Assembly: GCA_005397905.1 (NCBI GenBank) | Contig: GCA_005397905.1_4318.1 | Reading direction: 5' to 3' (one strand) | Origin: Escherichia coli | GTDB lineage: Bacteria; Pseudomonadota; Gammaproteobacteria; Enterobacterales; Enterobacteriaceae | DNA: 14,769 nt | Part shown: positions 5,314 through 13,657 of the stretch, one piece after another | How positions within the stretch are numbered: position 1 is the stretch's first letter | Layout: each line of letters begins with the position of its first letter | The notes under the pieces: model-generated | The model's database searches: none | The model's input: only the letters and a program-made list of their open reading frames with translations | What the model was told of the DNA's origin: nothing | Position numbers and translations under genes: made by a program

Positions 5314-5356
5314 TAGCGCTTTTTGTTAAAAAACCCCCAGGTTACTGGGGTATAAT
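5314..5356 (+). promoter_or_regulatory. TAGCAC-type promoter-like element (variant TAGCGC)
   Basis: TAGCGC 5314-5319 directly after the stop TAA 5311-5313; TTGTTA 5323-5328; hairpin CCCCAG-GTTA-CTGGGG (5335-5350) in the spacer; TATAAT 5351-5356. Confidence 0.55.
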
Positions 5357-7056: not shown

Positions 7057-7421
7057 TGGTGTGCATGGCTTTATCCGGATGCTCAGCAACAGACGCACTG
7101 ACTGGTTTGATTGGAAGTAAGCCGGAAGTTACGGCTCAGGCCGGGTCGGAGAATAACAAGGTCGGAGTTGGGTTAACTAACAAGGTTGACTCCAGTAGCT
7201 CCAGTGAAGCCACGGTTAAGGATTCTAGAGTAGGGTCTCTTGATAGCTCAAGTGGCAAAAAGACTGCCGACAATTCCATCAAGGCATCTACAATAACCGC
7301 TGAAAAGATTGAGATTACCAATAACGACTCATCCGCGCTCCCGTGGATTGGAACCGGAGCTATGGGGTTGCTGGTTCTGATTCTCTTGGCTGTAATCTTA
7401 AGACGTAAAAAAGCCTCCTAA
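7032..7421 (+). CDS. unimolecular spanin (u-spanin), outer-membrane lipoprotein with C-terminal TMD
   Basis: 129 aa; signal peptide with lipobox LSGC (MLKWIAALVVCMALSGCSA), Ser/Thr/Gly-rich middle, C-terminal TMD LPWIGTGAMGLLVLILLAVIL then RRKKAS; start overlaps the endolysin 3' end out of frame. Same architecture as T1 gp11. Confidence 0.75.
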   Translation: MLKWIAALVVCMALSGCSATDALTGLIGSKPEVTAQAGSENNKVGVGLTNKVDSSSSSEATVKDSRVGSLDSSSGKKTADNSIKASTITAEKIEITNNDSSALPWIGTGAMGLLVLILLAVILRRKKAS

Positions 7422-7438
7422 TGGAGGCTATATTTTTA
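7412..7438. terminator. bidirectional intrinsic terminator at the convergence point
   Basis: 7-bp stem AGCCTCC / GGAGGCT (7412-7418 / 7423-7429) with loop TAAT (holding the spanin stop codon); T-rich run after it on the plus strand (ATATTTTT) and a 5-6 T tract after it on the minus strand (rc of 7407-7411). Confidence 0.65.
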
Positions 7439-7771
7439 ACTAAATAACTCGTCGTCCGTCATTGTTCCTATATTCATCATCTCTTTTATGTACTTGCTTT
7501 CATACCCGTTAAGCGCCTCGAAGTTAAAACCGAATGGCCTCTTCAAACTCCCCTTGCTAACAAATTCACCGCACTTACCATCAATGTATCCCATGCTAAG
7601 CATCTTCGCGCAGAACTCCTTTGAAGCGGCGCTGCAAAACTCTCTATGCGATAAACCCGCTGCTTTGCTGAATCGCTGAGAGTCCTTATGTTGGTAGATG
7701 AATCGCGCCAAATGCTGGCGCGTAAAATAGCTATAGGATTCGCAGAATCGGTACAAGTCTAAAATAAACAT
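7436..7771 (-). CDS. hypothetical protein (111 aa)
   Basis: ATG 3 nt after the stop of the 527-aa gene (translational coupling); ends at the bidirectional terminator. Confidence 0.5.
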   Translation of the reverse strand: MFILDLYRFCESYSYFTRQHLARFIYQHKDSQRFSKAAGLSHREFCSAASKEFCAKMLSMGYIDGKCGEFVSKGSLKRPFGFNFEALNGYESKYIKEMMNIGTMTDDELFS

Positions 7772-7774
7772 TAA

Positions 7775-9358
7775 TTACCCCAGCAGTCGCGGATTAATGT
7801 AAACCTTATCACCAATCAGGCAGGTGTAGTTTTTCTCATCAAGCATCGGAAGTAAATGGTCTTTAATCTTAGCCATTACGCCAGCCTGACCCTCAAACGG
7901 CCTAACCTTGCGTGCTGATTCATATAGTGAACGAAGTCCTACAACGCCCTTACTGTTCTTTCCTTGCTTAATCAATATGTCAATTAACTTGTTCATCTCT
8001 GCATTATCGCCAGCGTGACCAGCCGAACTAGCAGCAGAAAGGTAAGTTTTACTTTGTTCGTAAAACATGATAATTGCCTCTTGCATTGTCTCTAGGTCAA
8101 TTTGCCTTGACTTCAATGGCCGCTCATTATTCTTGCATGACCAGTTTCTTATTGTATGAAGAATTGCCGCCATTCGAATAACTTGCTTATCCATCTTGCC
8201 AAGAGCGCCACGCAGCATAGAGTGAGAGTATTTACCTCCATCCGCAAGGTGCGGCTCCATATCCTGGCGTGCTAGATTAAGATATCGCATAGCTGATTCT
8301 GAAATAGATAAATTAACTTGTGTTTCGTTCATAATGTTGTGAATCATTCTAAAGTAATCAGCTTTCAATTCGCCATCAACCGGTTCGTATGTCGACTCAC
8401 CTTTTTCATTAATAAAAACGCGATTTCCAATCATGGGGCGCTCCCTAACCAGCCAGAATCGCTCAGATACACCTATACCACGAGCACCAGCCTCCATAAT
8501 TGCATTGATTGTTTCATCCTGAGCTATTACAGCTATTGCGCCAAGCGCGGTAAACATCAAGTTGTTGTCAGCATTGGCGCGAGATATTGATATATTTCCA
8601 GAATCCCACGCCTTAAGAACTAACTCACTGTTTGTTTTCTTGCTGCCATCTCCGTAGGTCATCCCAAGCAATGAGTTAATTGCCGTTGCTTCGTCTGATA
8701 TTACCGCAAAGTTACCCTGTCGACTGTTTATTCGAGCCAGACCTTCAGGTGTTGTATCAGATACCGGAAAGACAATATCACACAGCTTTTCTAACTTCTC
8801 TTCTAAATCCTCTTTCTCCTCAAACAATGACGCCATTTCGGATGGCGACTTCTCCTGCTTCATCTCTTTCGCCAGCGCTGATAGCTTGGCCATAATCTTT
8901 TTTCTTTCACGCTTTCGCTGGTCATTGATTCGCTCAACCTCGGCTACCATTGGAGCTATTGCGAGTGAGTTAATGGCTGACTTACCAGTCGATGGTGGCT
9001 GGCTGGTTACTACGTACAGTGAGGTTGGTTGCTGCGTTCCGTGATACTCAACAGTAAAACGCCCTAGCATGGCAGCGGAAATACACCCCAGGAAATGCAT
9101 GTATGCGGAAGACTCTGGGAACTGAACAGATCGAGCGATATTGGATGAGAGTTTGCCAACAACATCAATATCATTTCCGAGTGAGATTACGGGATACTTG
9201 TCATTTGCAGCATCAATCTCCACTGGTGCTTTCCAGAATGATTGAGACTGGCGATAGCCATTTGCATTAATGGCGACTCGCAGTGGTGGGAGGTTGTCTG
9301 CGGCAGCAATTGCCATAACCTGTTCAACAGATAGTTTATCTTCGTTGAAATCAAACAT
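7775..9358 (-). CDS. P-loop NTPase of unknown function (527 aa), RecA/DnaB-like Walker A
   Basis: Walker A-like VVTSQPPSTGKSAI (about residues 115-128), Walker B-like FAVISDE (about 217-223), a highly charged predicted helix between them; GGAGAG RBS. N-terminal 43 aa and C-terminal 55 aa are homologous to the 181-aa ORF at 12482-13027. Confidence 0.8.
   Translation of the reverse strand: MFDFNEDKLSVEQVMAIAAADNLPPLRVAINANGYRQSQSFWKAPVEIDAANDKYPVISLGNDIDVVGKLSSNIARSVQFPESSAYMHFLGCISAAMLGRFTVEYHGTQQPTSLYVVTSQPPSTGKSAINSLAIAPMVAEVERINDQRKRERKKIMAKLSALAKEMKQEKSPSEMASLFEEKEDLEEKLEKLCDIVFPVSDTTPEGLARINSRQGNFAVISDEATAINSLLGMTYGDGSKKTNSELVLKAWDSGNISISRANADNNLMFTALGAIAVIAQDETINAIMEAGARGIGVSERFWLVRERPMIGNRVFINEKGESTYEPVDGELKADYFRMIHNIMNETQVNLSISESAMRYLNLARQDMEPHLADGGKYSHSMLRGALGKMDKQVIRMAAILHTIRNWSCKNNERPLKSRQIDLETMQEAIIMFYEQSKTYLSAASSAGHAGDNAEMNKLIDILIKQGKNSKGVVGLRSLYESARKVRPFEGQAGVMAKIKDHLLPMLDEKNYTCLIGDKVYINPRLLG
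9233..9262. repeat. 30-nt perfect inverted repeat, copy A (inside the NTPase gene)
   Basis: rc of 9233-9262 = AATGGCTATCGCCAGTCTCAATCATTCTGG, identical to 12584-12613, while flanking synonymous sites have diverged. Confidence 0.9.
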
Positions 9359-9388
9359 TACTTCTCTCCGTATTGTTTTTGAGAGGCC

Positions 9389-9431
9389 ATTATATCAACG
9401 GCCTCTTATAAAGCATTATCAATTTGTGCTA
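9389..9431 (-). promoter_or_regulatory. TAGCAC-type promoter-like element
   Basis: Minus strand reads TAGCAC-AAA-TTGATA, 22 bp, TATAAT (plus 9431-9389); the -10 lies in the loop of dyad AGAGGCC / GGCCTCT (9382-9388 / 9400-9406). Confidence 0.55.
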
Positions 9432-9544
9432 TTAATTACTCTTAATCCACTTTATGCACATCCATGCTCCGGAAACATAGAGCGCTAGCTTTGCTAACTC
9501 AGCCGCTAAGTGTATAAATAAAGCAAAATCAGAAATAAGCTCAG

Positions 9545-9784
9545 TCATTTTTTAATCTCCATCTCCATAATTTCATAACTTATGTAATTATTTATCATTC
9601 CAATAAGTGATTTTGGGTATGTTTGCATATGATTCTTGGCTGAATCTTCATCAAGATGCGCTGATATGTTGTGAAAATTGTATTCATAATCCATGCCCAT
9701 TAGTATGTATATCTTATCGTGCGCCTTAATGAGGTTATTTGATTTTATTTCCCCAAGCGACCATCCTTTTCCTTTTCTAATCAT
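9545..9784 (-). CDS. hypothetical protein (79 aa)
   Basis: ATG overlaps the stop of the upstream minus-strand gene (ATGA). Confidence 0.5.
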   Translation of the reverse strand: MIRKGKGWSLGEIKSNNLIKAHDKIYILMGMDYEYNFHNISAHLDEDSAKNHMQTYPKSLIGMINNYISYEIMEMEIKK

Positions 9785-10134
9785 TTGTATTGAGCCTCAA
9801 AGCGATAGTCTCCGCAAACTGTAACAAATCCAACATCTTCGTCACGATATAGCTGCCATGCGCTTCCCTCTTTATCGTAAATGTATCCAGCACGCTGCCC
9901 AAGTCCAGCATGGAGATCTACTTGATATCGCTTCCCTTCGGTGAAGTATTTACGAATGGATGAGCGATGATTAACCTTTGTGCAGTAAATTGTCTTGGTC
10001 TTAATATACTTGCCGCGCTCTTCAAGGTTAATCCATTTCCCATCTTTCTTGATTTGTTCTACACCATCTTTAACGCGAGCTTTGTATAGTACGTTTTCGT
10101 TGCTAATCCAGTTTTTGGTAATCGTAGTAGTCAT
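9781..10134 (-). CDS. hypothetical protein (117 aa)
   Basis: Start chosen at the ATG giving MTTTITKNW... (plus 10134) because the track start 10179 lies inside the promoter -10; conserved leader CATCGAAACGAAACAACGAAGGG precedes it. Confidence 0.55.
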   Translation of the reverse strand: MTTTITKNWISNENVLYKARVKDGVEQIKKDGKWINLEERGKYIKTKTIYCTKVNHRSSIRKYFTEGKRYQVDLHAGLGQRAGYIYDKEGSAWQLYRDEDVGFVTVCGDYRFEAQYK

Positions 10135-10170
10135 TTCTTTTACCCTTCGTTGTTTCGTTTCGATGAGTTT

Positions 10171-10213
10171 AATATACATGAAAAGCCACGAAGGGTTTTA
10201 GCAATTAGTGCTA
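10171..10213 (-). promoter_or_regulatory. TAGCAC-type promoter-like element
   Basis: Minus strand TAGCAC-TAA-TTGCTA (plus 10213-10199), 22 bp, TATATT (plus 10176-10171). Confidence 0.55.
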
Positions 10214-10362
10214 TTTCGTGCTTTTTCTATGGCCTTGAGCATAATCTCATGACTCTCAAGCAAGTCATCGCGGAACCAATCACCGCAAGGCCAGCCTTTT
10301 CCGCTGTAGGTGCTGATTACCTCAAGATCGAAATAATTTATCTCAGATGGTAGAAGCATCAT
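10198..10362 (-). CDS. hypothetical small protein (54 aa)
   Basis: Minus-strand ATG at 10362 overlapping the upstream stop (ATGA), GAGGTG RBS; MMLLPSEINYFDLEVISTYSGKGWPCGDWFRDDLLESHEIMLKAIEKARNSTNC; ends in the same ...NSTNC-stop inside the TAGCAC element as the kinase gene. Confidence 0.45.
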   Translation of the reverse strand: MMLLPSEINYFDLEVISTYSGKGWPCGDWFRDDLLESHEIMLKAIEKARNSTNC

Positions 10363-10598
10363 TTCACCTCGTCAAAAGTTGCAATCCCAGGGATAAACAT
10401 TCCAACCTTCCAGCCTGCAATGGCAATCCATCCAGAATCGTGCTTATGCGGTCGCTCAGCGCCATTAATCAACCATTCGTTCGGGATTGTCTTGCCGTTA
10501 ATGATTAGCGGCTCAGCGTCGTATACAGAGCCTTTTACGAATGGTGTTAAAACTTTCTTGTCGGTGCTCGCAATAACGTTGGTGCAGCGAATTTTCAT
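10359..10598 (-). CDS. hypothetical protein (79 aa)
   Basis: ATG with GAGGA RBS; same strand as the flanking small genes. Confidence 0.5.
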   Translation of the reverse strand: MKIRCTNVIASTDKKVLTPFVKGSVYDAEPLIINGKTIPNEWLINGAERPHKHDSGWIAIAGWKVGMFIPGIATFDEVK

Positions 10599-10608
10599 AT
10601 CTCAATCC

Positions 10609-10788
10609 TCAAATAAATGGTAAACATTCATTACAGCCAAGTCCATCACAGCACATGAATTCATCATCTGACTGGAATTGCTTAGCCAAATCAATGTCCA
10701 ACTTTCCGCGCACCACAAGGTCGGTGTAATCTTCGTTCAGCCCAATCAGTGAGCATTCGTGGAGTAACTCATCTTTATCAATCTTCAT
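10609..10788 (-). CDS. hypothetical small Cys-rich protein (59 aa)
   Basis: Second in-frame ATG (MKIDKD...) preferred over track start 10794 on AAGGGG spacing; C-terminal CCDGLGCNEC cluster suggests metal binding. Confidence 0.45.
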   Translation of the reverse strand: MKIDKDELLHECSLIGLNEDYTDLVVRGKLDIDLAKQFQSDDEFMCCDGLGCNECLPFI

Positions 10789-10816
10789 ATCCATCCCCTT
10801 GTTGTTAGTGAGTTAA

Positions 10817-10859
10817 CTGTAGCCTCGCCAGCAACAGATGTCTTTAGCAAAAAGTGCTA
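10817..10859 (-). promoter_or_regulatory. TAGCAC-type promoter-like element (weak -10)
   Basis: Minus strand TAGCAC-TTT-TTGCTA (plus 10859-10845); the -10 at the expected distance is only TACAGT/CTACAG-like. Confidence 0.4.
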
Positions 10860-10861
10860 CT

Positions 10862-11053
10862 TCAGAAATTGATGTTCTCGACAACATGAACCATCTGATA
10901 ACCAAGGCGATAACTGTCACCGAGGATTAATCGACCCATAAACTGATCGTTTGTGAAGCTCTCCTTACCCATAGTGCGAAGCGTTCCGTTATGGATGATG
11001 GTGTCACCAATCTTTACGTCATTCTTATGCGTCAAAACAATATTATTGCTCAT
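10862..11053 (-). CDS. hypothetical protein (63 aa)
   Basis: ATG (MSNNIV...) with GAGGTG 6 nt upstream; the track start 11062 is GTG. Stop TGA lies 2 nt before a TAGCAC element. Confidence 0.5.
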   Translation of the reverse strand: MSNNIVLTHKNDVKIGDTIIHNGTLRTMGKESFTNDQFMGRLILGDSYRLGYQMVHVVENINF

Positions 11054-11067
11054 TATCAACACCTCTA

Positions 11068-11250
11068 TTACATGTGTTTCAGGTAGAAAGCGATTTCTTT
11101 AATGTTGTCTTCTGGATGAGCCTTCACGACTACCGCTAACATCTTCTCAACCAGAGTCTTGCTGCTCTCAGGGTTATAACCTTCCTGAACCAGTAGGGCG
11201 ATAGTGTTTTCGACGGTGACTGGTGAGTTTTTGTTGATGCGCTTAGCCAT
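11068..11250 (-). CDS. hypothetical protein (60 aa)
   Basis: First gene of the leftward operon; AAGGA RBS; leader CATCGAAACGACACGCACTAAAGGAAACC. Confidence 0.5.
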   Translation of the reverse strand: MAKRINKNSPVTVENTIALLVQEGYNPESSKTLVEKMLAVVVKAHPEDNIKEIAFYLKHM

Positions 11251-11287
11251 GATGGTTTCCTTTAGTGCGTGTCGTTTCGATGAGGTA

Positions 11288-11331
11288 ATAATAGCAAATC
11301 ACAGTCTTTTGATTATTAGCAAAAAGTGCTA
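11288..11331 (-). promoter_or_regulatory. TAGCAC-type promoter-like element
   Basis: Minus strand TAGCAC-TTT-TTGCTA (plus 11331-11317), 23 bp, TATTAT (plus 11293-11288). Confidence 0.5.
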
Positions 11332-11357
11332 TTCGTTAGATTTATGTATTGTTGCAG

Positions 11358-11418
11358 ATATTGCAATGATTCACATGACTATTGCACATATAGCAATATT
11401 GCTTCCGATGCAATGATG
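11358..11418. promoter_or_regulatory. cluster of ATTGCAAT-type palindromic operator-like sites
   Basis: ATATTGCAATGAT (11358-11370), ATTGCACATATAGCAAT (11381-11397) and GATGCAATGATG (11407-11418) share TTGCA / TGCAAT half-sites. Confidence 0.35.
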
Positions 11419-11419
11419 T

Positions 11420-11502
11420 TTTTGATTGTTGCGAAAAGTGAAATGAAGTGGTGATTGAGTGAATGAAGGATTGATGGACTACCATACAAGTTGATTTTGA
11501 TT
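11420..11502. repeat. direct-repeat array with GATTG core (five copies) plus TGAA(A)TGAAG repeats
   Basis: TTGATT/GATTGA at 11422, 11453, 11469, 11491 and 11497; TGAAATGAAG (11439-11448) and TGAATGAAGG (11460-11469). Confidence 0.4.
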
Positions 11503-11645
11503 CTGGCTGAGCCATTTTGAGCATACGCGTTATAAAAGTTATGCCGTGTGGATGCGCCAGCTCCCCGCGGGAATCATGTACGCCTATCACGCTAAATTAC
11601 GCAATGGTTACATAATAATATCTATATATATCAACCATTTAGTAA

Positions 11646-11666
11646 TATTATTATTATTATTATTAT
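11646..11666. repeat. (TAT)7 trinucleotide microsatellite in an AT-rich tract
   Basis: Seven uninterrupted TAT units at 11646-11666, flanked by (TA)n and further AT-rich sequence. Confidence 0.8.
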
Positions 11667-11726
11667 ATACGTGTATATAATGTAGATAGTGGATATTGGA
11701 TATTGCGATAGTTTTCTATGATTTTT

Positions 11727-11762
11727 TCCTACACTTGTAGGAATGGTACTACACTGTAGGAA
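11727..11762. promoter_or_regulatory. two adjacent palindromic operator-like sites sharing a TGTAGGA half-site
   Basis: TCCTACA-CT-TGTAGGA (11727-11742) and CTACA-C-TGTAGG (11749-11760), centres about 21 bp apart. Confidence 0.4.
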
Positions 11763-11891
11763 TAAATAGGCATATATGGGCCAATCCACCATAAAAACTG
11801 ATGTACAAGCTGTACACGGTTTTACATTGAGCTATATCTGGGGTTGTGAGCTGAAAAGCGTAAATAAATTGAATTAAACCATGAATAACAC

Positions 11892-11920
11892 TTGATAACA
11901 TGTAACCGCGATGATATTAT
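11892..11920 (+). promoter_or_regulatory. canonical sigma70 promoter with extended -10 (TTGATA-17-TGaTATTAT)
   Basis: -35 TTGATA 11892-11897, 17-bp spacer, TG at 11912-11913, -10 TATTAT 11915-11920; about 40 nt upstream of the ATG at 11961 (CAGGAG RBS). Confidence 0.65.
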
Positions 11921-11960
11921 GCACCCATCTTAACGAAGGAAACCAATCAGGAGTATATCT

Positions 11961-12482
11961 ATGTCAAATCGCATTCAACCAGTAAGCCTTGGTGATGTTA
12001 TCCGCTACATGGCTAAGCAGGCGCTTAAGGCCGACAATCGGACTTTCCATGTTCCAATCCACCTGATAGCTCGCCAGGTTTACGGGCTAACGTCTGATGA
12101 TATTGGTCGAATCAGCGCTGAGGATCTCGAGAGTGGCGGCAAATACAGTTTGGCAAAGTTGAAGGCTTCATATGTCTCTAACACAGTTGCCAGGATGCCA
12201 GAGATTCAGGAGGCGAACGTTCGGGCTAAGCTGTCAATCAAGGACGGAGACTTTGGGGATGATGTTGATGTTCGATGCGCATACATCACCTTGGTCGATG
12301 GGGCAATACAGACAGGAAAGAGAGTGATGGCCAACAACCAGGTAGCCGATAAGGCTGTAAGCGACTTTAAGGCTAGAATCCTCAAGCTGATGCCATCAGT
12401 GACTGAGTTTGAAGGTGATGAGATTACCGGAGCCATCAAAGCAATTAAGATGTACCAGGAAATGATTAAGGAGGCAAAATAA
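11961..12482 (+). CDS. hypothetical protein (173 aa), first gene behind the canonical promoter
   Basis: ATG with CAGGAG RBS; no recognisable motif. Confidence 0.65.
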   Translation: MSNRIQPVSLGDVIRYMAKQALKADNRTFHVPIHLIARQVYGLTSDDIGRISAEDLESGGKYSLAKLKASYVSNTVARMPEIQEANVRAKLSIKDGDFGDDVDVRCAYITLVDGAIQTGKRVMANNQVADKAVSDFKARILKLMPSVTEFEGDEITGAIKAIKMYQEMIKEAK

Positions 12483-13027
12483 TGGGGATGTTTGATTTTA
12501 ACGAAGATAAGCTAACTAATGATGAGATTATGAAGATTGCCATGCGGGATGGACTTCCTCCGCTACGGGTTGCAATCAACGCTAATGGCTATCGCCAGTC
12601 TCAATCATTCTGGTGTAGTGTTGAGGAGTTGCTCAGCGCAAAGCTCAACAGCAAGTCTGGCGTAGTTATGTGTAAGATTCACGGACAGAGCAGGAATGGC
12701 AAGGGGGTTGTCGGAATTCGATCAACATATGAAGCGCTGAGAAAGGTCAAGCCATTCGCCGGACTCAACGGAGTCATGCATGACCTGAAAAATAACATCC
12801 TGCCATCGTTACAGGACGCAGGAATCATCTGCTTAATCGGGGATAAGATTTACGTGCATCCATACATCGTTGGCATGCATGCGATAGAAGTTGAAGAGTG
12901 GTGCGACACCTGGGCTGTTGATGAGCATGCTAGTAGACTACCATACCACTTACGGTACGACGAAGATGAGGTAGAGAAGGCGATTGAGTTCTACCGGAAA
13001 GCTAAATCACTCCTGACCGGTAAATAG
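12482..13027 (+). CDS. hypothetical protein (181 aa), truncated paralog of the 527-aa NTPase lacking the P-loop core
   Basis: MFDFNEDKL...LPPLRVAINANGYRQSQSFW matches the NTPase N-terminus (20 consecutive residues identical); KGVVGIRSTYEALRKVKPF...CLIGDKIYVHP is about 55% identical to the NTPase C-terminus; no Walker motifs. AAGGAGG RBS; stop TAG is part of a TAGCAC element. Confidence 0.75.
   Translation: MGMFDFNEDKLTNDEIMKIAMRDGLPPLRVAINANGYRQSQSFWCSVEELLSAKLNSKSGVVMCKIHGQSRNGKGVVGIRSTYEALRKVKPFAGLNGVMHDLKNNILPSLQDAGIICLIGDKIYVHPYIVGMHAIEVEEWCDTWAVDEHASRLPYHLRYDEDEVEKAIEFYRKAKSLLTGK
12584..12613. repeat. 30-nt perfect inverted repeat, copy B (inside the paralog gene)
   Basis: AATGGCTATCGCCAGTCTCAATCATTCTGG at 12584-12613, in inverted orientation relative to 9233-9262. 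Confidence 0.9.
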
Positions 13028-13523: not shown

Positions 13524-13657
13524 TTTACATCCACACTTACTACACTGGCAAGTTCAATAGCGTTAAGCACGTTCGGGTTCACGATACCTACGATAGCGCA
13601 AAGGCTCAGTGGTTGGTTCTTGGCGGCGATATTAATTCATATAGAATCGCTGAGTAG
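13520..13657 (+). CDS. hypothetical small protein (45 aa)
   Basis: ATG overlapping the upstream stop (ATGA); MIYIHTYYTGKFNSVKHVRVHDTYDSAKAQWLVLGGDINSYRIAE; stop TAG is the TAG of a TAGCAC element. Confidence 0.4.
   Translation: MIYIHTYYTGKFNSVKHVRVHDTYDSAKAQWLVLGGDINSYRIAE

What the first reader, a model, noticed from the sequence alone, without database searches (positions are those of the whole stretch)
9545..11250. Leftward operon of six short ORFs feeding into the 527-aa NTPase
ORFs of 54-117 aa are tightly packed with overlapping stop/start codons (ATGA) and internal TAGCAC elements at 10213, 10859 and 11331. None has a recognisable enzymatic motif; one carries a C-terminal CCDGLGCNEC cluster. 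Such clusters of small early or middle proteins in virulent phages often include host-takeover or anti-defence factors.
Basis: inference. Interest (0 to 1): 0.45.

Follow-up and report, generated by a model that had tools for sequence, protein, structure and literature searches.

The report
Small phage genes behind marbox-like promoters
This is the variable accessory-gene block at one end of a T1/Rtp-like coliphage genome, split into four short transcription units, and the "TAGCAC" elements are the heads of a promoter type used throughout these phages that matches, in sequence and spacing, the E. coli promoters switched on by the stress regulators MarA, SoxS and Rob.

Summary
The window comes from an Rtp-like member of the Drexlerviridae (T1-like phages), 85-90% identical in DNA to known relatives.

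**The genes.** The leftward block is real but holds eight small genes, not six: seven of 54-117 aa plus a missed 38-aa one. Six of the eight are under purifying selection. None matches a family of known function.

**The TAGCAC elements.** They are not internal oddities. Each heads a conserved module: ATAGCACnnnTTGnTAAA, then 20 nt, then a TATAAT-like -10, then +1 A.
- The module occurs 11 times in the window, always pointing the same way as the genes. Four copies lie in this block.
- It occurs about 20 times in each of Rtp, T1 and Bas11, and never in lambda.
- So the "operon" is a run of four nested transcription units with no terminator before 7412-7429.

**What the box resembles.** It matches the published E. 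coli marbox consensus and has the geometry of micF, a known class II MarA/SoxS/Rob promoter.

**Experimental support.** In Bas11 the same module drives gp54, a trigger of the CapRel defence protein that sits in the matching gene block. Published data show this module works in uninfected cells and is weakened by mutations that I map to the GCAC core and to the -10.

**Still open.** The small proteins' functions are unknown. F is predicted to have an SH3-like fold closest to the Gp54 protein of Bas11. Binding by Rob, MarA or SoxS is inferred, not shown.

The parts
11315..11332 (-). P1 upstream box (ATAGCACTTTTTGCTAAT). It has one mismatch to the marbox consensus and heads the A-B unit. The -10 TATTAT is at 11293-11288 and the predicted +1 A is near 11281.
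11068..11250 (-). ORF A, 60 aa. DUF7421 and PHROG 7717, function unknown. Absent from the closest Rtp-like relatives.
10862..11053 (-). ORF B, 63 aa from the ATG that has a GAGGTG ribosome-binding site. PHROG 3623, function unknown. It travels with A as a cassette bounded by two promoter modules.
10843..10860 (-). P2 upstream box (GTAGCACTTTTTGCTAAA). Its 15-bp core matches the marbox perfectly and it heads the C-D-E unit. The -10 TACAGT is at 10821-10816 and the predicted +1 is near 10809.
10609..10788 (-). ORF C, 59 aa (61 aa from the upstream ATG). Very acidic (pI 4.05), with a conserved C-terminal CCxGxGCxxC cysteine cluster. Predicted to form three helices. PHROG 9053.
10359..10598 (-). 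ORF D, 79 aa. PHROG 4448. dN/dS 0.07-0.10.
10198..10362 (-). ORF E, 54 aa, acidic. PHROG 4548. dN/dS 0.02-0.14. Its last five codons and its stop codon (NSTNC*) are encoded by the P3 box itself.
10197..10214 (-). P3 upstream box (ATAGCACTAATTGCTAAA). It matches the marbox perfectly and heads the F-G-H unit. The -10 TATATT is at 10176-10171 and the predicted +1 A is at 10164. That start lies downstream of the ATG of the 132-aa reading of F, so the 117-aa reading is favoured.
9781..10134 (-). [not shown]
9545..9784 (-). ORF G, 79 aa. The reading frame is intact in four of the five relatives compared and absent from JulesPiccard. No PHROG or Pfam match. Synonymous divergence is unusually low (dS 0.05-0.19).
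9432..9548 (-). ORF H, 38 aa, hydrophobic. Conserved in relatives and annotated in BEK6. dN/dS about 0.23.
9415..9432 (-). P4 upstream box (ATAGCACAAATTGATAAT). It has one mismatch to the marbox and heads the helicase unit. The -10 TATAAT is at 9394-9389, bracketed by a 7-bp inverted repeat (AGAGGCC / GGCCTCT).
7775..9358 (-). 527-aa P-loop protein. DUF3987 in Pfam and PHROG 2373 'DNA helicase'. Homologous to T1 gp9 and Rtp67.
7436..7771 (-). 111-aa conserved protein. PHROG 2794. Homologous to T1 gp10 and Bas11 gp45. It is the last gene of the leftward block.
7412..7429 (.). Bidirectional intrinsic terminator that ends both the leftward block and the rightward lysis genes.

Best explanation
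**What it is**
- The region is the variable accessory-gene arm at the right end of the map of an Rtp/T1-like phage. It corresponds to T1 genes 1-10, Rtp genes 66-75 and Bas11 genes 45-55.
- Eight small genes (A-H), a DUF3987 helicase and a 111-aa protein are all read leftward. They start from a divergent control region at 11250-11960 and end at a bidirectional terminator at 7412-7429.
- The block is not one operon. Four copies of a family-wide promoter module give nested transcripts for A-B, C-D-E, F-G-H and helicase-111aa. Read-through is likely because no terminator intervenes.

**The module**
- Each module is ATAGCACnnnTTGnTAAA, then 20 nt, then a TATAAT-like -10, then +1 A.
- It has no usable -35 hexamer. 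Its upstream box is a positive element that works with host proteins only.

**Shown**
- The architecture, its conservation and its enrichment.
- By published experiment, in the matching Bas11 module: promoter activity in uninfected cells. Point mutations that I map to the GCAC core and to the -10 lower expression.

**Inferred**
- The box is a forward-oriented class II marbox centred at about -40.
- A host MarA, SoxS or Rob monomer therefore binds it and recruits sigma-70 RNA polymerase in place of -35 recognition. In unstressed cells Rob is the only abundant one of the three (from general knowledge).

**Cassettes and proteins**
- The repeated modules also act as junctions where gene cassettes are swapped between phages.
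- The small proteins are real but of unknown function.
- F, the helicase and the 111-aa protein are a conserved core, probably linked to replication.
- A-E, G and H are lineage-specific accessories of the kind that interact with host defences.
For: **Identity and gene order**
- DNA similarity and matching gene blocks place the window among Rtp/T1-like phages.

**The genes are real**
- All have ribosome-binding sites.
- All but G and H match phage protein families.
- dN/dS is 0.02-0.25 for C, D, E, F and H.

**Module statistics**
- The motif is enriched: 16 matches against 0.52 expected.
- The window has 8 perfect marbox matches against 0.17 expected, all belonging to the repeat and all pointing the same way as the genes.
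- 56 of 68 modules from the window, Rtp, T1 and Bas11 have exactly 20 nt between box and -10. The -10 has A2 and T6 by selection (the scan required them), and an A lies 7 nt downstream in 54 of 68.
- Perfect marbox matches followed by a correctly placed -10 number 15 in T1, 13 in Rtp, 8 in the window and 0 in lambda.

**Match to the published marbox**
- The consensus is gcannwwntgnnaaa (PMC12052159) or GCAHWWWWTGYYAAA (PMC6900184).
- Two positions left free in my search pattern are A or T in 68 of 68 modules, matching the 'WW' of the consensus. A third free position is C or T in 64 of 68, matching 'Y'.

**Geometry**
- The E. coli micF promoter reads GCACTGAATGTCAAA, 20 nt, TAGAAT, 7 nt, +1. 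This is the same spacing as the phage module.
- Class II sites are forward-oriented, lie near -41 and lack a -35 (PMC10268841, PMC8811837). The generic sigma-70 scan misses every module.

**Experiment in a sister phage (PMC11578894)**
- The 75-nt region upstream of Bas11 gene 54 is exactly one module.
- The cloned 'native promoter' begins at TAGCAC, judging by primer TZ-58.
- It expresses Gp54 in uninfected MG1655.
- The escape mutations '-71mut' and '-37mut' lower expression. Counted from the ATG, they fall on the A of GCAC and on A2 of TATCAT.

**No phage-encoded MarA**
- No MarA-like protein was found in Rtp or the window.

**Cassette behaviour**
- The A-B unit, bounded by P1 and P2, is 85-87% identical in otherwise different 50-kb phages.
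- Relatives carry different genes directly behind the conserved P3.
Against: - No binding or activation by MarA, SoxS or Rob has been tested for any of these boxes. The link rests on sequence and geometry.
- Transcription start sites are predicted, not mapped.
- Position 19 of the older 20-bp marbox consensus, which I quote from memory, is usually A in the phage box where that consensus has C or T.
- P1 and P4 each have one mismatch in the AAA element, and P2 has a weak -10 (TACAGT).
- Rob is reported to be largely held in inactive clusters in unstressed cells (PMC10268841). MarA and SoxS are then scarce (from general knowledge). Strong phage transcription from about 20 such promoters would therefore need explaining.
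- No phage-resistance screen that I could search reports rob, marA or soxS. Redundancy among the three could hide such an effect.
- The mutation positions are inferred from the construct names '-37mut' and '-71mut', read as distances from the start codon. The figure showing them was not available.
- The plasmid experiment cannot exclude some read-through from vector sequence.
Confidence: 0.6

Rival explanations
1. The ATAGCAC box is a positive promoter element, but it is read by something other than MarA, SoxS or Rob. Candidates are the alpha C-terminal domain of RNA polymerase (an unusual UP-like element), sigma-70 itself, or another host DNA-binding protein. On this view the match to the marbox is coincidental.
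For: - The TLS genome paper proposed an UP-element or enhancer role (PMC11447400).
- The conserved TAAAA lies where the proximal UP subsite sits.
- The Bas11 plasmid data show only that host factors suffice, not which one.
- High activity in unstressed cells is easier to explain without Rob, MarA or SoxS.
Against: - UP elements are A/T-rich and have no invariant G or C (from general knowledge). Here G4, C5 and G13 are invariant or nearly so.
- The box matches the marbox at all of its specified positions, including positions left free in my search.
- It has the same orientation and the same 20-nt distance to the -10 as micF. That joint coincidence is improbable.
Confidence: 0.22
2. A phage-encoded regulator binds the near-palindrome TAGCA-N5-TGCTA and switches these promoters on or off as a timing device. 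Candidates are the Cro-like HTH protein (homologue of Rtp52 and T1 gp23) and the first rightward gene product (DUF7174).
For: - TAGCA/TGCTA is an inverted repeat in most copies.
- These phages encode a Cro-like HTH protein.
- A canonical sigma-70 promoter at 11892-11920 could express an early activator.
Against: - The Bas11 module drives expression in uninfected cells, and the mutation that I map to the GCAC core lowers it there. No phage protein is therefore required.
- Conservation is asymmetric. G4 is invariant while its palindromic partner is C in only 43 of 68 modules. The conserved AAA has no mirror-image TTT on the other side.
- A separate, better candidate operator set for a dimeric HTH protein lies at 11351-11414 (ATTGC-N7-GCAAT, three copies).
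- No MarA-like protein was found in the phage.
Confidence: 0.1
3. The elements act negatively or after transcription. They would be stoperator-like roadblocks, terminators, or RNA hairpin or processing sites between genes of a single operon.
For: - The TLS paper raised the stoperator idea.
- TAGCA...TGCTA could form a 5-bp hairpin.
- Module spacers are enriched in short inverted repeats, with a mean best stem of 5.2 bp against 4.14 ± 0.16 in shuffles.
- Several of the intrinsic terminators annotated in the T1 record fall within module spacers.
Against: - A rigid 20-nt distance to a high-quality -10 and a conserved +1 A is a promoter signature.
- The GCAC mutation lowers expression, which is the opposite of what relieving a roadblock would do.
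- No Rfam family matches.
- These phages are virulent and no repressor gene is annotated in their genome records.
- The terminator-like hairpins lie in the spacer, not in the box, and they are weak or absent in P1-P3 of this block.
Confidence: 0.04
4. This is the first reader's reading: one leftward operon of small early proteins whose main role is host takeover or anti-defence.
For: - The genes are small, acidic or basic, non-enzymatic and variable between relatives.
- The matching Bas11 block is dispensable and holds a defence trigger (PMC11578894).
- The SU57 paper notes that small genes at the genome ends are the most variable part of the genome (PMC7718038).
Against: - Four internal promoters mean it is not a single operon.
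- No match to any defence-related family was found, and PADLOC covers defence systems rather than anti-defence proteins.
- F and the 111-aa protein are conserved with the helicase across subfamilies, which suggests a core function.
- No functional data exist for any of A-H.
Confidence: 0.2

Closest known systems
The 21-nt direct repeat of T1-like phages (aaATAGCACnnnTTGnTAAAA), described for phage TLS and noted in T1, Rtp and Rogue1 (PMC11447400)
   Same: It has the same consensus and the same orientation as transcription. It sits in intergenic positions about 65-82 nt upstream of start codons, with about 20 copies per genome.
   Different: That paper left the function open, offering stoperator, enhancer or UP element. 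Three things are added here:
- the fixed 20-nt link to a -10 hexamer and a conserved +1;
- the match to the marbox;
- the mapping of published Bas11 promoter-down mutations onto the box.
Class II MarA/SoxS/Rob (RamA)-dependent promoters of enterobacteria, such as micF
   Same: - The 15-bp asymmetric box matches GCAnnWWnTGnnAAA.
- It is forward-oriented and centred near -40/-41.
- There are 20 nt from the box to the -10.
- There is no recognisable -35 (PMC12052159, PMC6900184, PMC10268841, PMC8811837).
   Different: - The phage boxes are far more uniform than chromosomal marboxes. ATAGCAC is almost invariant, with an added conserved AT(A) at the 5' end and a fourth A at the 3' end.
- They occur about 20 times in a 46-kb virulent phage genome.
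- Binding by any of the three regulators is untested.
Gp54 of phage Bas11 (PDB 9AXB), a direct trigger of the CapRel-SJ46 defence protein
   Different: - There is no sequence relationship: 13% identity and hhalign probability 0.7%.
- F is twice as long.
- F belongs to another family (T1 gp7 and Bas11 gp48), which coexists with gp54 in Bas11.
- No protein in the window is a sequence homologue of Gp54.
Phage T4 middle promoters (MotA box plus -10, with sigma appropriation)
   Same: Both are phage promoters that replace the -35 hexamer with an activator box containing a TGCT core and keep a sigma-70 -10.
   Different: - The MotA box is centred at -30 and needs the phage proteins MotA and AsiA (from general knowledge).
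- Here the box is centred at -40, no phage protein is needed, and no MotA or AsiA homologue was seen.

Membership tests
Class II MarA/SoxS/Rob-dependent (marbox) promoter | A 15-bp asymmetric box matching gcannwwntgnnaaa or GCAHWWWWTGYYAAA | tested here: met
   In the window, 8 modules match perfectly and 3 have one mismatch. In this block, P2 and P3 are perfect and P1 and P4 have one mismatch each. Positions left free in my search pattern are A or T in 68 of 68 modules and C or T in 64 of 68.
Class II MarA/SoxS/Rob-dependent (marbox) promoter | Forward orientation relative to the transcribed gene | tested here: met
   All 11 window modules, and all but one of those in Rtp (33762, which has no -10 and faces minus-strand genes), point the same way as the downstream genes.
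Class II MarA/SoxS/Rob-dependent (marbox) promoter | The box overlaps the -35 position and is centred near -41, at the same distance from the -10 as in known class II promoters | tested here: met
   The box centre is at -39 to -41 relative to the predicted +1. There are 20 nt from box to -10, exactly as in E. coli micF. The start sites are predicted, not mapped.
Class II MarA/SoxS/Rob-dependent (marbox) promoter | A poor or absent -35 hexamer together with a good -10 | tested here: met
   The generic sigma-70 scan finds none of the modules. The -10 hexamers match TATAAT at 4-6 of 6 positions.
Class II MarA/SoxS/Rob-dependent (marbox) promoter | Binding and activation by MarA, SoxS or Rob | not testable with these tools
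   The evidence is only indirect. The Bas11 module is active in uninfected E. coli, and a mutation that I map to the GCAC core lowers expression (PMC11578894).
Drexlerviridae 21-nt direct repeat (TLS-type DR) | Consensus aaATAGCACnnnTTGnTAAAA, oriented with transcription, about 76 nt upstream of start codons | tested here: met
   In P1-P4 the distance from TAGCAC to the start codon is 65-81 nt.
Sigma-54 (-24/-12) promoter | A GG at -24 and a GC at -12 with fixed TGGCAC-N5-TTGC spacing | tested here: not met
   The box reads TAGCAC-N3-TTGC. It has AG instead of GG and the spacing is 2 nt too short. A conserved sigma-70 -10 lies 22 nt further downstream. The consensus is quoted from general knowledge.
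UP element | An A/T-rich tract from -40 to -60 without invariant G or C | tested here: not met
   G4 and C5 are invariant, and C7 and G13 are 93-97% conserved.
Stoperator (mycobacteriophage L5 type) | A negative cis element bound by a phage repressor | tested here: not met
   The GCAC mutation lowers expression. The element is tied to a -10 at a fixed distance. The phage is virulent.
Gp54-Bas11-like SH3-type beta-barrel proteins | Fold similarity to PDB 9AXB | tested here: met
   [not shown]
Gp54-Bas11-like SH3-type beta-barrel proteins | Sequence homology to Gp54 | tested here: not met
   hhalign probability is 0.7%. phmmer finds no hit.
DUF3987 / phage helicase (the 527-aa protein) | Pfam DUF3987 domain and a P-loop | tested here: met
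   Pfam E 4.5e-41, PHROG 2373 E 1e-247, and the sequence PPSTGKS.
Known defence or anti-defence proteins | Homology to a described family | tested here: not met
   Nothing in PADLOC, NCBIfam or Pfam. No dedicated anti-defence library was available.

The most novel reading that the evidence does not exclude
T1-like phages (Drexlerviridae) have built nearly all of their roughly 20 transcription units on class II marbox promoters. Phage gene expression would then be driven by the host's Mar/Sox/Rob stress regulators: Rob in unstressed cells, and MarA or SoxS under antibiotic, bile or oxidative stress.

That would:
- tie phage development to the host's antibiotic-resistance and stress state;
- predict impaired growth on a rob marA soxS triple-deletion host;
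- explain how these phages manage without an RNA polymerase, a sigma factor or -35 elements.

The repeated promoter modules would also serve as the recombination junctions that shuffle small accessory and defence-interacting genes such as A-H and Gp54.
Probability: 0.4. Interest if true: 0.75.

Novelty: new member of a known kind. Interest (0 to 1): 0.5.

Why it matters
**As a gene block the finding is ordinary.** These are hypothetical small genes already annotated in Rtp, T1 and the BASEL phages.

**The value lies in the TAGCAC elements.**
- The literature records them only as an unexplained repeat.
- Here they are placed in a precise promoter architecture that matches a well-studied host activator system.
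- Published mutations that lower Bas11 gene 54 expression map onto them.

**If Rob, MarA or SoxS do drive these promoters:**
- The transcription programme of a classic and notorious phage family becomes directly testable.
- Phage success would be linked to the same regulators that control intrinsic antibiotic resistance.

**Practical use for annotation:**
- It gives transcription-unit boundaries.
- It gives corrected start codons for C and F.
- It adds the missed 38-aa gene.
- It points to this arm as the place where defence triggers or counter-defence genes are exchanged as promoter-bounded cassettes.

Tried and rejected
**Family searches**
- Pfam, PHROGs, NCBIfam and PADLOC scans of all ten proteins gave only DUF or unknown-function families, plus DUF3987 for the 527-aa protein.

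**Searches against solved structures**
- Sequence searches with B and D alone, with a concatenation of 24 small ORFs from the window, and with profiles of F and C found nothing real. The only hits were artefacts of the linker I inserted.

**Structure predictions**
- C model (pLDDT 75): Foldseek against the PDB found nothing.
- F model against predicted viral structures (BFVD): only uncharacterised phage proteins.
- hhalign of F against Gp54: no relationship.

**Other negative results**
- A generic sigma-70 and terminator scan finds none of the modules and finds fewer promoter-like sites than chance. It did locate the terminator at 7412-7429 and a canonical promoter at 11892-11920.
- Rfam found no RNA family.
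- A search for a phage-encoded MarA-like protein was negative.

**Readings considered and rejected**
- Sigma-54 reading of TAGCAC...TTGC: the GG is missing and the spacing is wrong.
- MotA-box reading: the position is wrong and no phage factor is needed.
- Symmetric-dimer reading of the palindrome: conservation is asymmetric.

**Literature and tool notes**
- Searches for any link between T1-like phages and marbox, Rob, MarA or SoxS found none. One search was wasted on 'marboxil'.
- The first homology search timed out.
- Remote structure tools were repeatedly busy.


Full report
**1. Where the window comes from**

Megablast places the window in the Rtp-like Drexlerviridae (subfamily Braunvirinae). 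It is 84-90% identical, in patches, to Rtp, BEK6, SU57, JulesPiccard (Bas03), Msk and Veterinaerplatzvirus.

In the Rtp record the region corresponds to genes rtp66-rtp75, a leftward block at the right end of the map. T1 has the same block as genes ST1-ST10. Bas11 has it as genes 45-55. The window runs across the conventional ends of these circularly permuted genomes. From 11961 onward the genes are the rightward block that begins with the rtp1 homologue.

**2. The observation**

The minus strand carries the following genes.

| Gene | Coordinates | Length |
|---|---|---|
| A | 11068-11250 | 60 aa |
| B | 10862-11053 | 63 aa |
| C | 10609-10788 | 59 aa |
| D | 10359-10598 | 79 aa |
| E | 10198-10362 | 54 aa |
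| F | 9781-10134 | 117 aa |
| G | 9545-9784 | 79 aa |
| H | 9432-9548 | 38 aa |
| DUF3987 P-loop protein | 7775-9358 | 527 aa |
| conserved protein | 7436-7771 | 111 aa |

- The count is therefore seven ORFs of 54-117 aa plus a short hydrophobic one, not six.
- ATGA overlaps join D/E, F/G and G/H. The other junctions are gaps of 10-73 nt.
- Every gene has a Shine-Dalgarno sequence.
- For C, the homologues (58-59 aa) and the position of the ribosome-binding site favour the second ATG.
- For F, the 132-aa reading starts upstream of the predicted transcript start of its own promoter. The 117-aa reading is therefore preferred.

*Conservation.* C-H, the helicase and the 111-aa protein are conserved in the five relatives compared, except that G and H gave no hit in JulesPiccard.

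| Gene | dN/dS |
|---|---|
| C | 0.14-0.18 |
| D | 0.07-0.10 |
| E | 0.02-0.14 |
| F | 0.02-0.13 |
| H | about 0.23 |
| G | 0.14-0.85 |

The G values rest on very few substitutions, because its synonymous divergence is oddly low.

A and B are absent from those relatives. They occur together, at 85-87% DNA identity, in otherwise different 50-kb Drexlerviridae.

**3. What the TAGCAC elements are**

*Distribution.*
- TAGCAC occurs on the minus strand at 11331, 10859, 10213 and also 9431.
- It occurs on the plus strand at 2708, 3401, 5965, 13025 and 13655. Variants lie at 206 and 5313.
- Every copy points the same way as the local genes.
- The extended pattern gives 16 matches against 0.52 expected.

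*Architecture.* Aligning the copies shows a fixed layout: ATAGCACnnnTTGnTAAA, 20 nt of unconserved spacer, a TATAAT-like hexamer, then an A seven bases further on. This A often begins ATCGAAAC. A ribosome-binding site and a start codon follow.

In 68 such modules collected from the window, Rtp, T1 and Bas11:
- the spacer is exactly 20 nt in 56 and is 19 or 21 nt in the rest;
- positions 2 and 6 of the -10 are A and T in all 68, but the scan required this;
- the +1 A is present in 54.

There is no usable -35 hexamer at the normal distance, and a generic sigma-70 scan finds none of these modules. This is a promoter family, not a set of internal operon elements.

*Module coordinates in this block*.

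| Module | Box | -10 | Predicted +1 |
|---|---|---|---|
| P1 | 11332-11315 | 11293-11288 | about 11281 |
| P2 | 10860-10843 | 10821-10816 | about 10809 |
| P3 | 10214-10197 | 10176-10171 | about 10164 |
| P4 | 9432-9415 | 9394-9389 | about 9382 |

The only convincing intrinsic terminator is the bidirectional one at 7412-7429. The block is therefore best described as four nested units: A-B, C-D-E, F-G-H and helicase-111aa.

**4. Prior knowledge of the element**

The TLS genome paper (PMC11447400) describes the same 21-nt repeat, aaATAGCACnnnTTGnTAAAA:
- it occurs at 21 places in TLS;
- it is oriented with transcription;
- it lies about 76 nt upstream of start codons;
- similar repeats are noted in T1, Rtp and Rogue1.

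The paper leaves the function open between stoperator, enhancer site and UP element. The repeat itself is therefore known. Its mechanism is not.

**5. The marbox match**

*Sequence.* The consensus binding site for the E. coli regulators MarA, SoxS and Rob is given as 5'-gcannwwntgnnaaa-3' (PMC12052159) and as 5'-GCAHWWWWTGYYAAA-3' (PMC6900184).
- The phage box contains this 15-mer.
- Eight window modules match the first form perfectly and three have one mismatch, against 0.17 perfect matches expected by shuffling.
- Positions 9 and 10 of the box, which I left free when collecting modules, are A or T in 68 of 68 cases. This matches the 'WW' of the consensus.
- Free position 14 is C or T in 64 of 68, matching 'Y'.

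*Geometry.* The literature defines class II promoters as having the marbox in forward orientation, overlapping the -35, near position -41, and lacking a recognisable -35 (PMC10268841, PMC8811837).
- The phage boxes are forward-oriented and centred at -39 to -41 relative to the predicted starts.
- I fetched the E. coli K-12 micF promoter, a known class II target. It reads GCACTGAATGTCAAA, 20 nt, TAGAAT, 7 nt, then the annotated 5' end.
- That is the same box-to-(-10) distance and the same -10-to-start distance as the phage module.

*Control genomes.* Perfect marboxes followed by a correctly placed -10 number 15 in T1, 13 in Rtp, 8 in the window and 0 in lambda.

**6. Experimental anchor in a sister phage**

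- Gene 54 lies in the Bas11 block that matches this one.
- Its entire 75-nt upstream region is one module: ATAGCACTTTTTGTTAAA, 20 nt, TATCAT, 32 nt, ATG.
- The paper cloned gp54 'with its native promoter'. The forward primer (TZ-58) begins at TAGCAC.
- Gp54 was detected from this plasmid in uninfected MG1655.
- Two CapRel-escape mutations upstream of the gene lowered expression. The constructs are named -37mut and -71mut.
- Counted from the start codon, -37 is the A at position 2 of TATCAT and -71 is the A of GCAC.
- Numbering from the transcript start would place -71 outside the cloned fragment. The start codon is therefore the only consistent reference point.

The consequences are:
- The module is a working promoter.
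- It needs no phage protein.
- Its upstream box is a positive element.
- The stoperator and phage-activator ideas are largely excluded.
- The remaining question is which host component reads the box.

**7.

- The box is nearly palindromic (TAGCA-N5-TGCTA), and the phages encode a Cro-like HTH protein (Rtp52; Pfam P22_Cro, E 4e-6, below the family threshold).
- Conservation is asymmetric, however. G4 is invariant while its mirror partner is C in only 43 of 68 modules. The invariant AAA on the right has no TTT counterpart on the left. That pattern fits a monomer with two different reading heads, as MarA is described (PMC6900184).
- A better target for a dimeric HTH protein lies just upstream of P1. 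Three ATTGC-N7-GCAAT palindromes sit at 11351-11414, and matching sites lie at the equivalent place in Rtp.
- phmmer found no MarA-like protein in Rtp or the window.
- A sigma-54 reading fails because the GG is missing and the spacing is N3 rather than N5.
- An UP-element reading fails because of the invariant G and C positions.

I could find no paper that connects T1-like phages with marbox, Rob, MarA or SoxS.

**8. Cassette structure**

- P2, P3 and P4 sit at the same relative positions in JulesPiccard, BEK6, A110b and T145P1. Their spacers differ while the box, the -10 and the leader are kept.
- In JulesPiccard and A110b, a different gene follows P3 directly.
- The A-B segment shared with distant phages runs from one module to the next, 10854-11340.
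- The boxes often supply the stop codon, or even the last codons, of the upstream gene. The C-terminal NSTNC and the stop codon of E are encoded by the P3 box.

These features fit exchange of promoter-bounded gene cassettes, with the repeated modules as the junctions.

**9. The proteins**

- None of A-H matches a family of known function.
- F is the only widely conserved one, with homologues T1 gp7 (E 1e-20) and Bas11 gp48 (E 2.5e-21). Its database relatives all come from contigs of Drexlerviridae size.
- There is no sequence relationship between F and Gp54.
- F is basic (pI 9.4) and always sits just upstream of the helicase. A nucleic-acid-binding or helicase-associated role is my inference only.
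- C is very acidic (pI 4.05) with a conserved cysteine cluster. Its model has three helices and a low-confidence C-terminus, and it has no structural match. Metal binding is plausible but untested.
- In Bas11, Gp54 and its neighbours can be deleted (PMC11578894). At least part of this arm is therefore dispensable in the laboratory.

**10. Verdict**

- The 'single operon' reading is wrong.
- The anti-defence idea remains open.
- The gene block itself is ordinary and already annotated as hypothetical proteins.
- The useful result is that the TAGCAC elements belong to a family-wide promoter module that depends only on host factors, and whose box matches a class II marbox in sequence, orientation and spacing.
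- I rate the promoter and cassette reading as very likely. I rate the specific involvement of Rob, MarA or SoxS at roughly 40-50%.

Noticed in passing
window 12482-13027 (+): A 181-aa ORF is a cut-down paralogue of the 527-aa helicase on the other strand. It keeps the N-terminal 51 residues (69% identical) and the C-terminal ~95 residues (40% identical) but lacks the whole DUF3987 ATPase core. JulesPiccard and BEK6 have the same arrangement.
   Followed up: partly
window 11351-11414: Three 17-bp palindromes of the form ATTGC-N7-GCAAT (two perfect, one with one mismatch) are clustered just upstream of P1 in the divergent control region. Matching sites lie at the equivalent place in Rtp (7-23 and 37-53). 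They look like operators for a dimeric HTH protein such as the Cro-like Rtp52 homologue.
   Followed up: partly
spacers of the promoter modules, e.g. window 5331-5350 and 9389-9407; L001 2377-2396; L008 41974-42007: Short inverted repeats are enriched between the box and the -10, or bracketing the -10. The mean best stem is 5.2 bp against 4.14 ± 0.16 in shuffles. Their sequences differ from copy to copy while the pairing is kept. Several look like small terminators followed by a T-run, and several terminators annotated in the T1 record fall in these spacers. Terminator and next promoter appear to be interleaved.
   Followed up: partly
window 10197-10214, 2707-2710, 13654-13657: The promoter box doubles as the end of the upstream gene. 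The last five codons and the stop of E (NSTNC*) are the box sequence. Elsewhere the TAG of TAGCAC, or a TAA just before it, is the stop codon.
   Followed up: no
window 9545-9784 (ORF G): G has much lower synonymous divergence from relatives (dS 0.05-0.19) than its neighbours (0.3-1.9). It has no PHROG match and is only 37% G+C. This suggests recent horizontal spread or an overlapping constraint at the DNA level.
   Followed up: no
window 10854-11340: The A-B cassette, including both flanking promoter boxes, is 85-87% identical to phages TH21, XT34 and 50EP (about 50 kb, other Drexlerviridae). It is absent from the closest Rtp-like relatives. The homology ends at the boxes.
   Followed up: partly
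window 11892-11920 (+): This is the only canonical sigma-70 promoter found in the 7300-12100 stretch that was scanned (TTGATA, 17 nt, TATTAT, with an upstream TG). It serves the first rightward gene, a 173-aa DUF7174 protein. That gene may be transcribed without any activator.
   Followed up: no
window 11600-11700: A very A/T-rich stretch contains an (ATA)n run and several inverted repeats in the long intergenic region. It lies in the area where the pac site or genome ends of T1-like phages are reported.
   Followed up: no
L004 (MG065688, 'Campylobacter phage A110b') and other hits: Records labelled as Campylobacter, Pseudomonas or Enterococcus phages are 85-90% identical to these coliphages and carry the same modules. 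The host labels are probably wrong, for example because of contaminating T1-like phages.
   Followed up: no
L001 33762 (+): One Rtp copy of the box has no -10 and is followed by a strong terminator-like hairpin. It lies between two minus-strand genes, so it is an orphan or decayed module.
   Followed up: no
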